Origin: Candidatus Babeliales bacterium
Lineage (GTDB): Bacteria; Babelota; Babeliae; Babelales; JANWKD01
Length of the DNA: 64,000 nt
NCBI GenBank assembly: GCA_963722255.1
Contig: CAVRJO010000001.1
Span: 81,007-145,006 of the forward strand
Direction of reading: 5' to 3'
Part shown: piece by piece, positions 23,629 to 31,363 of the stretch
How the letters are laid out: each line of letters begins with the position of its first letter
Numbering within the stretch: position 1 is the stretch's first letter
Made by a program: the position numbers and the translations under genes
Notes under the pieces: model-generated
Told to the model about the DNA's origin: nothing
Database searches by the model: none
What the model saw: the letters and a program-made list of their open reading frames with translations, nothing else

Positions 23629-25695
23629 ATGAAGTTCTCTCTTAAAACCTCTTTAAAAGCAATAGTATTGCTTGCTTGCTCTATCACTATGTTTTGTGGA
23701 TTTATTATATCTGAATGTACAAATAATATATATGCTACTAAACAAAAACCTTTTTCAATGGGTCATGGGAATCAAAAATATAGCGTAATTCCTTGTATGC
23801 TAGATCTTAAAAATATAATACAAGCTCTTATTGAACATCATATTCAAAATAAAATAGAAGATGAAATTCCAGAAGAGTTTTTTATTTGCTACAAAACATT
23901 ACTCGAAGGCAAAAATATATTTTTGACCGAAGATTTATTAAAAGCATTAACCTATATAGCTTTGAAACTTGATGAACTCACTCAGTCCAAAGCTCCTCGA
24001 GAAGATGCACCAAATGGGAATCCAATTGTTGGCCCATTAATTGCTTGTGATATTAGTTCGAAAATTATTTTAGTAAATCAAATAATTAACCTTATTAAAA
24101 ATTGCTGTAATCAATTAGAAGAAGATTTTAATCTTACTTTTAGTTTAGTTACTGATTTAAATACTACGATCACAACGTGCATAACTGTCATTACTGCTTT
24201 AGACTTTTCAGCTACTGCGACAGTATTAGCTGATATACAAAATACTCTAACAGCATGTTGCCAAGAGATAGCAAATGAATTTCAACAAACATGGACCATT
24301 CTAGCAGCTGGATTCAATGAAACTTCAACGGTACTCGCTGATATAAAAAATACCATGACCTCATGTTGTGCGAATACTCAACTAAATTTTCAAGGAACAT
24401 TTACTCTCATTACATCTATACAAAATAGCAAGCGGTGTCCTCCTATTTCACTCTGCTCGCCAATTCAAATTATGGCACCAACAACTATTTCTACACCAGG
24501 TTTTTACTGTTTAAATAACGATATTAGTGGTCAAATTGTTATCAATGCAAATGATGTTACACTCGATTTAAATAGTCATACGATTACCGGAGGAGGTATT
24601 GGATCAGGAAGCGGCATTATTGTCAACTCAGGATTTAATAGGCTTATTAAGAATGGAAATATCACTGCATTTGATAATGGTATTCAATGTATAGGAAACA
24701 CTGATACCGTTATAGAAAATCTTATAATCACAAACTGTTTTATTGAAGGTGTTACCATAAATACAGGAACTGCCATTTTTCTAGATTCATTATCAATACA
24801 TAATATATCAGGAATTGGTGTTCATTTTGTTAATGGAAATGATGCAAGTAGTATAAAAAATAGTACCGTAACACAATCTGAACAAGGATTTGTTTTTGAT
24901 TTTATTTATAACAGCTTAATTCAAAATTGCAATGTTCTTGATTGTAGTTCAAATTTAAACATTACTGCAGGAAACGTTGGCGGTTTTATTATCAATAATG
25001 GAAGCTTTATTCAAATTAATAACAGCTCTGTTAAAAACTATGTAGGGCTTCAACGCATAGCAGGGTTTGCATTAGTTAATGCGGTAGAAAACGTTATTTT
25101 TAGTAACTGTACTGCTCAAAATATTGTTGCAACATTGCCTGGACAGGTCGTTTCAATCGCCTTTGGATATATAGCAGGTTTATTCACATCGCATTTAGAA
25201 TTCACTGATTGCTCAGCTTTATCTGTTACTGCTGATCAAATTGCTGTTTGCTTTGAAATAGAAGGCCCCGGAGTAACGCTTGATAAATGTAGCGCCCAAA
25301 TTTGCACATCAAATAGTATTCTTGCCGATGGTTTTCACTCCATAAGCAATAATGTATCTATAAGTTATTGCCAAGCTTATAAATGCAAACAAAACGGCTT
25401 TAATCTAGATTCATTTAACAATAGTACGGTACTTCAATATTGCCAAAGTGCATACAATAATAATGGATTTATCATTCAAACACCTTCCAGTCTGCTTGAT
25501 AATTGCGTTGCATTTAAAAATAATATTGGATTTAATCTTAATATTGCAGGAATCTCCCTTGTACATTGCTTTGCAGCACAAAATACTACTAATTACACAT
25601 TTTTTGCTAATAATGTACAAAATGCAAATACCCAAGTTAATAATGCCGCCCCTCTCCTTACCGGTCCCTTTGCAGGAGCAAACCTATTTATGTAA
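23629..25695 (+). CDS. secreted Cys-doublet-repeat / right-handed beta-helix-like protein, paralog 1 of a tandem array
   Basis: AGGA SD; signal peptide; 4 spaced CC doublets in repeats (...DIKNTMTSCC...); then ISTPGFYCL...VINANDVTLDLNSHTITGGGIGSGSGIIVNSGFNRLIKNG and ~20-25-aa periodic N/G/I/V-rich repeats; conserved C-terminal tail NANTQVNNAAPLLTGPFAGANLFM. Confidence 0.7.
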   Translation: MKFSLKTSLKAIVLLACSITMFCGFIISECTNNIYATKQKPFSMGHGNQKYSVIPCMLDLKNIIQALIEHHIQNKIEDEIPEEFFICYKTLLEGKNIFLTEDLLKALTYIALKLDELTQSKAPREDAPNGNPIVGPLIACDISSKIILVNQIINLIKNCCNQLEEDFNLTFSLVTDLNTTITTCITVITALDFSATATVLADIQNTLTACCQEIANEFQQTWTILAAGFNETSTVLADIKNTMTSCCANTQLNFQGTFTLITSIQNSKRCPPISLCSPIQIMAPTTISTPGFYCLNNDISGQIVINANDVTLDLNSHTITGGGIGSGSGIIVNSGFNRLIKNGNITAFDNGIQCIGNTDTVIENLIITNCFIEGVTINTGTAIFLDSLSIHNISGIGVHFVNGNDASSIKNSTVTQSEQGFVFDFIYNSLIQNCNVLDCSSNLNITAGNVGGFIINNGSFIQINNSSVKNYVGLQRIAGFALVNAVENVIFSNCTAQNIVATLPGQVVSIAFGYIAGLFTSHLEFTDCSALSVTADQIAVCFEIEGPGVTLDKCSAQICTSNSILADGFHSISNNVSISYCQAYKCKQNGFNLDSFNNSTVLQYCQSAYNNNGFIIQTPSSLLDNCVAFKNNIGFNLNIAGISLVHCFAAQNTTNYTFFANNVQNANTQVNNAAPLLTGPFAGANLFM

Positions 25696-25729
25696 GGTAA
25701 TAGAAAAATATACTATATAAGGAATAAGA

Positions 25730-29317: not shown

Positions 29318-29353
29318 TTCTTTTGATAAAAAATGTACTTAAGGAGAACCGTA

Positions 29354-31363
29354 ATGAAATTTTATGATGTATTAAAACTATCGTTATTAATGATTTTTTG
29401 TGTTTTTTGTCATATCAGCTCACAACCATTCGAAGATACCATTGCACAACTATCTCTTATTAATGATTATGTAGAACTTACTTCTTTAACATCTACACAA
29501 TTAGGATCTAAACTCAAGGAGATACTAACGCAAATACTTGAACATCAAGACAATATCCCGGAAGAGATTAATCGATGTTATCAAGCGTTACATGAAAAAG
29601 CTCAATCAGTAAAAATTAACGATCTAATCATAACATTGATGTATAGTATTGATTATAAAGCACCAGGATTACTTTTACATAAAAGTCTACGTGCTCCTCG
29701 CCCCAATGCATCTCAAAATAACAATTCAGTAGTAGGGCCAATAATTAACTGTGATCTTCATCAGCTCACTGAGCTGCTTGAATTTTTGCGAATTTTAATA
29801 ACGCTTTGTTGCGAACAATTAGAACAGGATTTTAACATTCTTTTTAGTGATTTAACTACCATACTAAATAATCTCAACACCTACTGCATTTTAATAACAG
29901 CTACGTCCGATTTTCAGGGTACATTTACCACAATTCAAGATATAAAAAATACCCTGACCACATGTTGTGCAAACATTACCCTTGATTTTGAAGCTACCTG
30001 GACTAGTATCTTTGCTGGCTTTGCAACAACTTTTACTGAGATTTCAGATATAAAAAATACATTTACGATCTGTTGTGATGAAATTCAACAAAATTTTCAA
30101 GGAACATTTACAGCATTACATAGTTTAAGCACAACAAATACCTGCATATCTCCCTGTGGCGCAGTTCCTATTACACAATCTACTATTATTACCGTCTCAG
30201 GTTCTTACTGCCTTTCTAAGGATATTGCTGGTCCAATAACTGTTAATGCAAATAATGTAACATTAGATTTAAATAATCATACCGTTTCAGGTTCAGGTGC
30301 AGGCAGTGGTGCGGGCATTATACTTAATGCTGGATCTAACAGGTTAATTAAAAATGGACGTATTGAAAATTTTGATACCGCAATTTTTAGTACAAACAAT
30401 GTCACAACTGCGTTATTAAACATTGTTATTAACACCTGCTTTATTGAAGGAATAACAATCAATAATGGAACCGATATTCATTTGGATTCACTCGTAATAA
30501 CAAGTATTATTGGTATCGGAGTTCATTTGACAGGAATTAACAATGCATATCTTATAAAAAATGTTTTAATTAACTTGGCAGAGCAAGGATTTATTTTTGA
30601 TACTATTTCTAATAGTCTGATACAAAATTGTGAAGTTACTGATTGTAACTCTCCTCTTTCGACACAAGGTTATGCAGTTAATGCTGGAAGCTTTAATCAA
30701 TTTGATAATTGCTCAGCTAAAAATCTTGTTTCAATAATTAAGTCAGTAGGTTTTTTCTTATTAAATAGCAACAATACCATACTCACAGACTGTACTGTTG
30801 AGAATATGATTACTAACGTTGGAGCCTCTGCCGAAGGTTTTGAATGTAATACTCTCTCAAGCGATAATGAATTATTACATTGTTCAGTTTTAAATGTTAA
30901 TGCTCCCGTTTTCACCGCTGGATTCGCTTTAGAAGGTACTGCTATTACAGCAATCGATTGTCTTACACAATCCTGTTTTACCTCTGATTTTAATGGTAAT
31001 GGCTTTGTGTGTACTGGTTCAAATATAGCATTAACAGATTGCCAGGCATTTAACTGTCAATCTGTTGGATTTAACATAACATCAACAAATATTACGCTGC
31101 AATTTTGCCAAAGTGCTTATAATGATACTGGGTTCTTGATTAACAATCCTAATGTTCTTATTGGCAATTCAGTTGCAGTAAATAATGGCTCCATTGGTTT
31201 TAATAGTAACTTTTTAACTCTAGCACTCTATCATTGTTTTGCTTCTCAAAATGGAATCAATAATTATGTTGGTATTCCTAATGTTCAAAATGCAAATACC
31301 CAGGTAAATAATACAGCACCAGGACTTACAGGACCTTTTGCAGGAGCTAATCTCTTTATCTAA
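29354..31363 (+). CDS. secreted Cys-doublet-repeat / beta-helix-like protein, paralog 4
   Basis: Start moved to the Met preceded by AAGGAG (MKFYDVLKLSLLMIFCVFCHISS); same architecture; tail NANTQVNNTAPGLTGPFAGANLFI. Confidence 0.7.
   Translation: MKFYDVLKLSLLMIFCVFCHISSQPFEDTIAQLSLINDYVELTSLTSTQLGSKLKEILTQILEHQDNIPEEINRCYQALHEKAQSVKINDLIITLMYSIDYKAPGLLLHKSLRAPRPNASQNNNSVVGPIINCDLHQLTELLEFLRILITLCCEQLEQDFNILFSDLTTILNNLNTYCILITATSDFQGTFTTIQDIKNTLTTCCANITLDFEATWTSIFAGFATTFTEISDIKNTFTICCDEIQQNFQGTFTALHSLSTTNTCISPCGAVPITQSTIITVSGSYCLSKDIAGPITVNANNVTLDLNNHTVSGSGAGSGAGIILNAGSNRLIKNGRIENFDTAIFSTNNVTTALLNIVINTCFIEGITINNGTDIHLDSLVITSIIGIGVHLTGINNAYLIKNVLINLAEQGFIFDTISNSLIQNCEVTDCNSPLSTQGYAVNAGSFNQFDNCSAKNLVSIIKSVGFFLLNSNNTILTDCTVENMITNVGASAEGFECNTLSSDNELLHCSVLNVNAPVFTAGFALEGTAITAIDCLTQSCFTSDFNGNGFVCTGSNIALTDCQAFNCQSVGFNITSTNITLQFCQSAYNDTGFLINNPNVLIGNSVAVNNGSIGFNSNFLTLALYHCFASQNGINNYVGIPNVQNANTQVNNTAPGLTGPFAGANLFI

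What the first reader, a model, noticed from the sequence alone, without database searches (positions are those of the whole stretch)
25600..31363. Conserved C-terminal tail ...NANTQVNN.APGLTGPFAG.NLF[IM] shared by all four array proteins may be a sorting or secretion tag
The paralogs diverge substantially along the beta-helix, yet the last ~30 residues are nearly invariant: QNTTNY....NVQNANTQVNNxAPGLTGPFAGxNLF(I/M) followed by the stop. Strong conservation confined to a short terminal peptide is what is seen for C-terminal sorting signals such as T9SS CTDs, PEP-CTERM/GlyGly-CTERM, or autotransporter and two-partner-secretion recognition motifs. The tail ends in an aromatic-hydrophobic pair but is far too short to be a beta-barrel. 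The divergent fifth paralog (38958..40706) shares the upstream ...NNTTNY..VPNV... portion but lacks LTGPFAG. That gives a natural with/without contrast.
Basis: seen in the sequence. Interest (0 to 1): 0.6.

Follow-up and report, generated by a model that had tools for sequence, protein, structure and literature searches.

The report
Conserved C-terminal tail on Babeliales beta-helix proteins
Four neighbouring surface-type proteins of an uncultured intracellular bacterium (Babeliales) all end in the same 27-residue peptide, which selection keeps and which is private to this one protein family, so it looks like a docking or address peptide but fits no known sorting-signal class.

Summary
All four tandem genes (23629-31363, + strand) end in N[VT][QE]NANTQVN[NK]xAxxLTGPFAGxN[LV]F[IM]-stop.

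**Selection, not gene conversion.** Amino-acid identity is 74% in the tail and 44% elsewhere. Synonymous codon identity is the same in both (55% and 53%). The DNA after the stop codons is unrelated.

**An old four-gene array.** The four genes are four orthogroups kept in the same order in at least four Babeliales genomes, and the tail is kept on all of them.

**Private to one family.** Among 1.84 billion representative proteins the tail occurs only on this family.
- It has no transmembrane segment or basic cluster.
- It matches no NCBIfam or Pfam sorting-signal model.
- No sortase or secretion gene lies nearby.

**Not unique in its conservation.** The start of the beta-helix is as conserved as the tail. 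The fifth paralog's family has its own invariant tail (...PINFTANI[AS]E).

**Structure and portability.** AlphaFold2 twice models the helix confidently and leaves the tail unplaced. In one relative, the last ~140 residues including the tail sit on beta-propeller proteins inside the array.

**Best reading.** The tail is a docking peptide within a shared C-terminal module, acting in trans for assembly or anchoring. A private export signal cannot be excluded.

The parts
23629..25695 (+). Array gene 1 (type 1, 688 aa): signal-peptide-like N-terminus, KAPR motif, helical region with Cys-Cys pairs, right-handed beta-helix, tail
25730..27556 (+). Array gene 2 (type 2, 608 aa), same architecture
27584..29317 (+). 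Array gene 3 (type 3, 577 aa), same architecture. This is the protein modelled with AlphaFold2
29333..31363 (+). Array gene 4 (type 4, 676 aa; database version starts at 29354, 669 aa)
25612..25692 (+). Tail of gene 1: NVQNANTQVNNAAPLLTGPFAGANLFM
27473..27553 (+). Tail of gene 2: NVQNANTQVNNSALGLTGPFAGGNLFI
29234..29314 (+). Tail of gene 3: NTENANTQVNKAAPGLTGPFAGGNVFM
31280..31360 (+). Tail of gene 4: NVQNANTQVNNTAPGLTGPFAGANLFI
28094..29221 (+). Beta-helix of gene 3 (aa 171-546), pLDDT mostly above 90. The tail that follows has pLDDT 35-56
27707..28081 (+). Helical region of gene 3 (aa 42-166) with Cys-Cys pairs 25/25/36 residues apart. Hydrophobic period 3.55
38958..40706 (+). Fifth, divergent beta-helix paralog (582 aa). 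Single-copy orthogroup in conserved ruvB-yebC-yicC-X-dnaE synteny
40644..40703 (+). Tail of the fifth paralog, NVATSPLITDPINFTANISE. This is that family's own conserved version of the C-terminal element

Best explanation
**What it is.** The tail is a 27-30-residue C-terminal peptide kept by selection. It sits on a family of proteins found so far only in Babeliales/Dependentiae-type contigs. Each protein has a signal-peptide-like N-terminus, a long amphipathic helical region with Cys-Cys pairs, and a right-handed beta-helix. The family is encoded as an array of four ancient orthogroups in fixed order.

**How it most likely works (inferred).** The tail is the most constrained part of a shared C-terminal module of about 140 residues: the last helix rungs plus the tail. 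On its own it is flexible and it folds on a partner in trans. All four orthogroups keep nearly the same sequence, so all four must fit the same binding site. That site is either on neighbouring subunits or on one common envelope anchor. In the first case the tail would close or register an oligomeric fibre, as C-terminal oligomerisation elements do in phage tailspikes and fibritin. It therefore behaves like a family-private assembly or address peptide, not like a general sorting tag.

**Shown here:** the selection, the restriction to one family, the lack of membrane-anchor features, and the portability of the module.

**Inferred:** binding in trans, and what the partner is.
For: **Selection on the peptide**
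- Amino-acid identity is 74% in the tail and 44% elsewhere. Synonymous codon identity is equal (73/132 and 778/1474, p = 0.59). The DNA after the stops is unrelated.

**Age of the array**
- Four genomes carry four-gene arrays with positional orthology 1-2-3-4, at about 40-47% identity between genomes. The tail is kept on all 16 proteins.

**Not part of the monomer fold**
- Two AlphaFold2 runs give the helix pLDDT above 90 and the tail 35-56.

**Portability**
- In L012/L013 the type-1 gene is split. Its last ~140 residues, tail included (25 of 30 tail residues identical to B1, the type-1 protein of L001), sit on three tandem proteins. Each has a signal peptide and a lactonase-type beta-propeller, and all three lie inside the array.

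**Signs of an oligomeric or fibrous protein**
- The N-terminal region is about 120 residues long with a hydrophobic period of 3.55-3.65. This is significant in 7 of 8 proteins tested.
- The nearest folds are phage tailspike depolymerases.

**An old element of the superfamily**
- The sister family has its own invariant tail. More distant members end in P.[FWY]..N[IVF]xx.
Against: - There is no direct evidence of oligomerisation or of any partner. Multimer prediction was not possible with these tools.
- Single-copy relatives without the long helical region also keep the tail (P0013, P0014, P0026, P0027, P0030). A hetero-tetramer therefore cannot be the only context.
- The truncated type-1 gene in L012 is an intact ORF without the tail, so the tail may be dispensable for that part of the protein.
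- Low pLDDT does not prove disorder.
- The same facts fit a private export signal about as well.
Confidence: 0.4

Rival explanations
1. The tail is a private export or surface-anchoring signal. After Sec export, the tail (with the last rungs) is recognised by an unidentified Babeliales outer-membrane or periplasmic factor. That factor moves or fixes these proteins at the cell surface.
For: - The tail is always at the extreme C-terminus.
- All members have signal-peptide-like N-termini.
- The tail is unplaced in both monomer models.
- The same tail sits on four orthogroups.
- The module was transferred to beta-propeller passengers.
- Cultured Dependentiae are diderm, lack LPS genes, and have only Sec plus a pilus/secretin-like system described, so a surface route is unknown (PMC6561590).
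Against: - The tail is found on no other protein family in 1.84 billion representatives. In a 1.42-Mb relative contig it is found only in the array.
- No candidate machinery lies in the window, and none is conserved next to the related arrays among their annotated genes.
- It matches no known signal model.
- Variants with 1-2 extra terminal residues exist, which argues against strict recognition of the free carboxylate.
- The portable unit is about 140 aa, not the tail alone.
Confidence: 0.25
2. The tail is a structural cap acting in cis. It folds back on the C-terminal end of its own beta-helix, seals the hydrophobic core and prevents edge aggregation. It is conserved for folding reasons only.
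For: - The tail is always linked to beta-helix rungs, even in the propeller chimeras.
- A related terminal pattern (aromatic, then Asn, then a hydrophobic residue) recurs across the wider beta-helix superfamily.
- The other most conserved block is the opposite end of the helix.
Against: - Two AlphaFold2 runs place every rung with pLDDT above 90 but not the tail.
- The tail shows no significant similarity to internal rungs: best 4.2 bits, against a shuffled maximum of 8.2.
- The tail is rich in Pro, Gly, Asn and Gln.
Confidence: 0.15
3. The tail is a host-directed ligand. It would be exposed at the tip of a surface fibre or on a secreted protein and would bind a protist host component, for example a peptide-binding domain that recognises hydrophobic C-termini.
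For: - Babeliales are obligate intracellular parasites of protists (PMC6561590).
- The window encodes several ankyrin-repeat proteins, a class that the same paper lists among putative secreted effectors.
- The tail is unplaced in the models, lies at the terminus, and ends in hydrophobic residues.
Against: - 27 conserved residues is far longer than a typical short linear motif (general knowledge).
- The sister family's tail ends in an acidic residue.
- There is no evidence of surface exposure or secretion.
Confidence: 0.08
4. The shared tail is an artefact of recent duplication or gene conversion among the paralogs.
For: The genes are tandem and co-oriented with 15-34 bp spacers.
Against: - Synonymous codon identity in the tail equals that of the rest: 55% and 53%.
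- The DNA after the stop codons is unrelated.
- The four genes are separate orthogroups, each closer to its counterparts in other genomes than to its neighbours.
- The tail is kept in genomes only about 40% identical overall.
Confidence: 0.02

Closest known systems
C-terminal oligomerisation elements of phage tailspikes and fibres (e.g. the P22-type tailspike C-terminal region, the T4 fibritin 'foldon' of about 27 residues); from general knowledge
   Same: A short C-terminal element follows a fibrous or beta-helical body. It is more conserved than the body and is meaningful only in the oligomer. The nearest folds to the modelled helix are tailspike depolymerases.
   Different: There is no sequence similarity and the oligomeric state here is unknown. 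These proteins are cellular with signal-peptide-like N-termini (Sec export inferred), not virion parts, and no match was found in viral contigs.
Autochaperone region at the C-terminal end of beta-helical autotransporter passengers (PMC5767081)
   Same: A conserved element at the C-terminal end of a single-chain right-handed beta-helix on a Sec-exported protein. In autotransporters it is needed for secretion and folding.
   Different: No beta-barrel translocator follows; the protein stops right after the tail. There is no sequence match. The tail is about 30 aa and is not modelled as a folded subdomain.
T9SS C-terminal domain (CTD) signals
   Same: A C-terminal module shared by several signal-peptide-bearing proteins, and here transferable to another passenger.
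   Different: From general knowledge, the CTD is a folded 70-100-aa beta-sandwich found on many unrelated proteins in Bacteroidota, with dedicated machinery. Here there is no model hit and only one protein family. The phylum is different.
Sortase/exosortase-type tripartite signals (LPXTG, PEP-CTERM, GlyGly-CTERM and relatives)
   Same: A conserved motif at the extreme C-terminus of proteins with N-terminal signal peptides.
   Different: There is no hydrophobic helix (highest 15-residue hydropathy mean 1.34) and no basic cluster. No NCBIfam hit. No sortase-like gene was seen. It is not shared by diverse proteins.

Membership tests
Right-handed parallel beta-helix proteins (Pfam PF13229 clan) | Repeated beta-helix rungs detectable by profile and by fold | tested here: met
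   PF13229 hits are weak to moderate: E 1e-6 to 6e-5 for the four array proteins and 4e-9 for the fifth paralog. Only two of the five reach the gathering score. The AlphaFold2 helix has pLDDT above 90. Foldseek matches tailspikes and polysaccharide lyases, E about 1e-4.
Sortase/exosortase/rhombosortase tripartite sorting signals | Signature motif followed by a transmembrane helix and a basic cluster at the C-terminus | tested here: not met
   In the last 40 residues the highest 15-residue hydropathy mean is at most 1.34. The last 30 residues hold 0-2 K/R in all 30 unique tails.
Sortase/exosortase/rhombosortase tripartite sorting signals | Match to curated signal models | tested here: not met
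   No NCBIfam sorting-signal model matched the full proteins at E up to 1, or the isolated tails at E up to 10.
Sortase/exosortase/rhombosortase tripartite sorting signals | Signal shared by several unrelated proteins of one genome, with a cognate processing enzyme | tested here: not met
   The tail profile finds only this family in 1.84 billion representatives. The only GTDB species representative with hits has three, all in its array. No such enzyme is in the window. The whole source genome could not be scanned.
T9SS C-terminal domain | Folded 70-100-aa C-terminal beta-sandwich with a Pfam/TIGRFAM match | tested here: not met
   No Pfam or NCBIfam hit. The tail is about 30 aa with pLDDT 35-56.
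Type Va/Vc autotransporters | C-terminal outer-membrane beta-barrel translocator | tested here: not met
   The protein ends 27-30 residues after the last rung. No autotransporter domain was hit. The tail is too polar to form membrane strands.
Two-partner secretion (TpsA) | N-terminal TPS domain and a neighbouring TpsB (Omp85-type) gene | tested here: not met
   No TPS-domain hit. No Omp85/POTRA protein was found among the 30 window ORFs of at least 150 aa that were scanned; 9 were not scanned. No such family appears in the precomputed Pfam annotations of the neighbouring genes in the related loci.
Outer-membrane-protein beta-signal | Last strand of a barrel, with a terminal aromatic residue and alternating hydrophobic residues | tested here: not met
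   The Phe is penultimate, there is no alternating pattern, and there is no barrel. The sister family's tail ends in Glu.
Type I secretion C-terminal signal | Substrates lack N-terminal signal peptides and usually carry RTX repeats, with an ABC/MFP/TolC system encoded nearby | tested here: not met
   All members have signal-peptide-like N-termini. This rests on a hydropathy heuristic; no dedicated predictor was available. There are no RTX hits and no neighbouring ABC exporter or TolC.
Phage tailspike-like trimeric fibres | Homotrimer with a C-terminal trimerisation region | not testable with these tools
   Only monomer prediction was available. Fold similarity is generic.

The most novel reading that the evidence does not exclude
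The last beta-helix rungs plus the invariant 27-residue tail form a new address or assembly module private to Babeliales. It would direct Sec-exported proteins with different head domains (beta-helix or beta-propeller) into one surface structure. That structure would be built from four conserved paralogous subunits in a diderm that lacks LPS, using machinery not yet known.
Probability: 0.25. Interest if true: 0.65.

Novelty: new variant of a known kind. Interest (0 to 1): 0.4.

Why it matters
Dependentiae/Babeliales are widespread obligate parasites of protists, and almost nothing is known about their cell surface or how they attach to hosts. Here a four-gene array of stalk-plus-beta-helix proteins with signal-peptide-like N-termini is conserved across genomes. 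It carries a shared C-terminal module that can be moved to another head domain. That makes it a concrete candidate for a surface or attachment structure.

The tail also gives a simple experimental handle: a synthetic peptide, or a tail-deleted construct, could be used to find the structure's partner.

If the tail proved to be a true targeting signal, it would be a new class. If it is an oligomerisation element, the finding is an ordinary feature of an undescribed protein family.

Tried and rejected
1. **Word-indexed tail search failed.** The 42-column profile returned nothing, not even the family itself. The same profile scores members at 78-88 bits locally. One search is therefore a tool false negative and I did not use it. 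The exhaustive representative search replaced it.
2. **'The tail is a degenerate last helix rung.'** By eye it resembled the NCTVQN rung. A tail-only profile against tail-less family sequences scored at most 4.2 bits, below the shuffled maximum of 8.2. Rejected as unsupported.
3. **Gene conversion.** Rejected.
4. **Transmembrane beta-hairpin contributing to a shared barrel.** Rejected, because the first half of the tail is N/Q/T-rich with no lipid-facing pattern.
5. **Promoter and terminator scan of the array.** Counts were at shuffle level, so it was uninformative.
6. **PDB sequence search with the tail profile.** Only chance-level hits.
7. **Viral contigs.** No occurrence of the tail pattern.
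8. **Literature.** Nothing was found on this family or motif in Dependentiae.
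Full report
**1. The observation**

The window carries four co-oriented ORFs separated by 15-34 bp:

| Gene | Coordinates | Length |
|---|---|---|
| 1 | 23629-25695 | 688 aa |
| 2 | 25730-27556 | 608 aa |
| 3 | 27584-29317 | 577 aa |
| 4 | 29333-31363 | 676 aa |

- All four end in N[VT][QE]NANTQVN[NK]xAxxLTGPFAGxN[LV]F[IM], directly followed by the stop.
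- A DNA pattern for GPFAGxNxF[IM]-stop hits exactly these four places. None of 100 shuffles gave a hit.
- Pairwise amino-acid identity is 74% in the last 30 columns and 44% elsewhere.
- The tail is not the only strongly conserved block. In a 17-sequence family alignment it ranks second (0.753). The start of the beta-helix, PGxYCLAxDIxGxIIINAxNVTLDLNNHT, ranks first (0.782). The mean is 0.556. The four window paralogs alone give the same order.

**2. Selection, not gene conversion**

- Where two paralogs share an amino acid, they use the same codon in 73/132 cases in the tail and 778/1474 elsewhere (p = 0.59).
- Third codon positions vary freely inside the tail, and the DNA after the stop codons is unrelated.
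- The constraint is therefore on the peptide, not on the DNA or on an RNA element.

**3. What the proteins are**

- Pfam gives only weak to moderate right-handed beta-helix hits. NCBIfam gives no meaningful hit.
- Each protein has a signal-peptide-like N-terminus, judged by a hydropathy heuristic.
- An approximately 120-residue region is predicted as long helices. Its hydrophobic period is 3.55-3.65, and Cys-Cys pairs lie 25/25/36 residues apart.
- A beta-helix of about 375 residues follows, modelled with pLDDT above 90.
- The nearest solved folds are phage tailspike depolymerases and polysaccharide lyases, at generic similarity (E about 1e-4, 10-14% identity).
- In both AlphaFold2 runs the tail is the only part after the helix, and it is not placed. 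The first run used the full protein with 17 sequences and gave pLDDT 35-48. The second used the helix plus tail with 38 sequences and gave 40-56.

**4. Distribution**

- The family is small. The full-length search found about 20 proteins. The only one carrying a source name is a distant, tail-less member (P0016), labelled Candidatus Dependentiae.
- An exhaustive profile search with the last 42 residues against 1.84 billion representative proteins found 18 hits. Fifteen of them are this family. The other three are internal repeats or low-complexity sequence, not C-terminal tails.
- In 185,579 GTDB species genomes, the DNA pattern occurs only in one Candidatus Babeliales MAG, three times, all in its array.
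- In JGI metagenomes it occurs in one sample: four hits that make one array split over two contigs.
- It does not occur in viral contigs.
- Thirty unique tail-bearing proteins were collected. None has a hydrophobic segment or a basic cluster in the tail.

**5. The array is ancient**

- Four genomes each carry four genes in a row: the window, L001, L002 and L005+L006.
- The bit-score matrix shows positional orthology. Gene 1 is closest to the other genes 1, and the same holds for genes 2, 3 and 4.
- The duplications therefore predate these lineages, which are about 40-47% identical. All four orthogroups still keep nearly the same tail.
- The flanking genes differ between genomes. The window has rodA upstream and an SPFH gene downstream. 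L001, L002 and L012 have a methyltransferase and a DedA-type gene upstream.
- No sortase-like, Omp85, ABC-exporter or other secretion gene was found among the 30 window ORFs of at least 150 aa that were scanned; 9 were not scanned.

**6. The 'without' contrast is not clean**

- The fifth paralog (38958-40706) belongs to a separate single-copy orthogroup. It lies in conserved ruvB-yebC-yicC-X-dnaE synteny.
- Its orthologs carry their own nearly invariant tail, NY.GVPNVAVSPT..TPINFTANI[AS]E-stop.
- More distant members end in P.[FWY]..N[IVF]xx.
- The array tail is thus one version of an older C-terminal element of this beta-helix superfamily.

**7. A natural domain swap**

- In L012/L013 the array sits behind the same methyltransferase and DedA-type genes, but the type-1 gene is split.
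- One product is a 510-aa protein equal to residues 1-517 of B1, the type-1 ortholog in L001. It has no tail.
- It is followed by three tandem genes. Each encodes a signal peptide, a lactonase-type 7-bladed beta-propeller, and type-1's last ~140 residues. These match B1 residues from 499-520 up to 660 at 52-56% identity and include GLTG[PS]FAGANLFM.
- Types 2, 3 and 4 follow.
- The portable unit is therefore the last rungs plus the tail. Selection has kept it on a different head domain inside the same array.

**8. Interpretation**

Gene conversion is excluded.
- Five facts fit best with a docking peptide that acts in trans and must fit one common site:
  - strict C-terminal position;
  - selection on the peptide;
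  - no placement in the monomer models;
  - identity across four old orthogroups;
  - portability of the module.
- That common site is either on neighbouring subunits of an oligomeric fibre or on one envelope anchor. I give this reading 0.4.
- A private export or anchoring signal fits almost as well (0.25), and these tools cannot separate the two.
- A structural cap acting in cis (0.15) is weakened by the two models and by the lack of similarity to internal rungs.
- A host-directed ligand (0.08) is possible, because these bacteria are intracellular parasites of protists (PMC6561590).

**9. Comparison with known systems, and novelty**

- The tail works most like the C-terminal oligomerisation elements of tailspikes and fibritin (general knowledge), or like the autochaperone end of beta-helical autotransporter passengers (PMC5767081). 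It is a member of neither.
- No paper in the library mentions this family.
- I rate it a new variant of a known kind: an undescribed, lineage-specific beta-helix protein family with a conserved terminal peptide. Interest is moderate (0.4).

**10. Limits**

- The whole source genome could not be scanned.
- No multimer modelling and no dedicated signal-peptide predictor were available.
- One search was a false negative of the word-indexed search, as one search shows.

Noticed in passing
L012 1498-12619 (also L013): The array is expanded to seven genes. The type-1 gene is split into a tail-less 510-aa protein plus three tandem beta-propeller proteins that carry type-1's last ~140 residues. This could be a split or complemented beta-helix, or a swap of the head domain.
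   Followed up: partly
window 23629-31363 and relatives: A conserved [KR]APR motif, followed 5-10 residues later by VGP and a Cys, lies ahead of the helical region in array types 1, 2 and 4 and in single-copy relatives. Type 3 and the fifth-paralog family lack it. It could be a processing site.
   Followed up: no
window 25910-26269, 27707-28081 and equivalents: Cys-Cys pairs are spaced 25/25/36 residues apart on an amphipathic helix about 120 residues long with a hydrophobic period near 3.6. This suggests a disulfide-stapled helical bundle or stalk. Relatives P0015 and P0016 carry many more of these repeats.
   Followed up: partly
window 36271-45601: The fifth beta-helix gene lies in the housekeeping block ruvB-yebC-yicC-X-dnaE. 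The Babeliales MAG keeps the same block (L010).
   Followed up: yes
window 52446-54843 (-): Pyruvate phosphate dikinase is split into two ORFs that overlap by about 80 bp (53455-54843 and 52446-53534). This may be a frameshift, a pseudogene or a sequencing error.
   Followed up: no
window 4388-5698 (-): A group II intron reverse transcriptase/maturase ORF (RVT_1 + GIIM) lies next to mutS. The intron RNA itself was not searched for.
   Followed up: no
window 10243-14657 and 51172-52392 (-): Three ankyrin-repeat proteins, plus an integrase-core fragment at 11305-11802.
   Followed up: no
window 40780-41931 (-): A 383-aa protein rich in Pro and Glu, with a signal-peptide-like N-terminus and PPPPP/PLPPLP runs. 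It has no Pfam hit and looks like a possible eukaryote-mimicking effector.
   Followed up: no
window 32419-33113 (-): Two small overlapping ORFs look by eye like a nucleotidyltransferase/HEPN toxin-antitoxin pair. They were not scanned against Pfam.
   Followed up: no
L006 4943-5134 (-): A small ORF just downstream of the related array weakly matches the last-rung part of the tail profile (E = 2e-4 in the local search). It may be a gene remnant.
   Followed up: no
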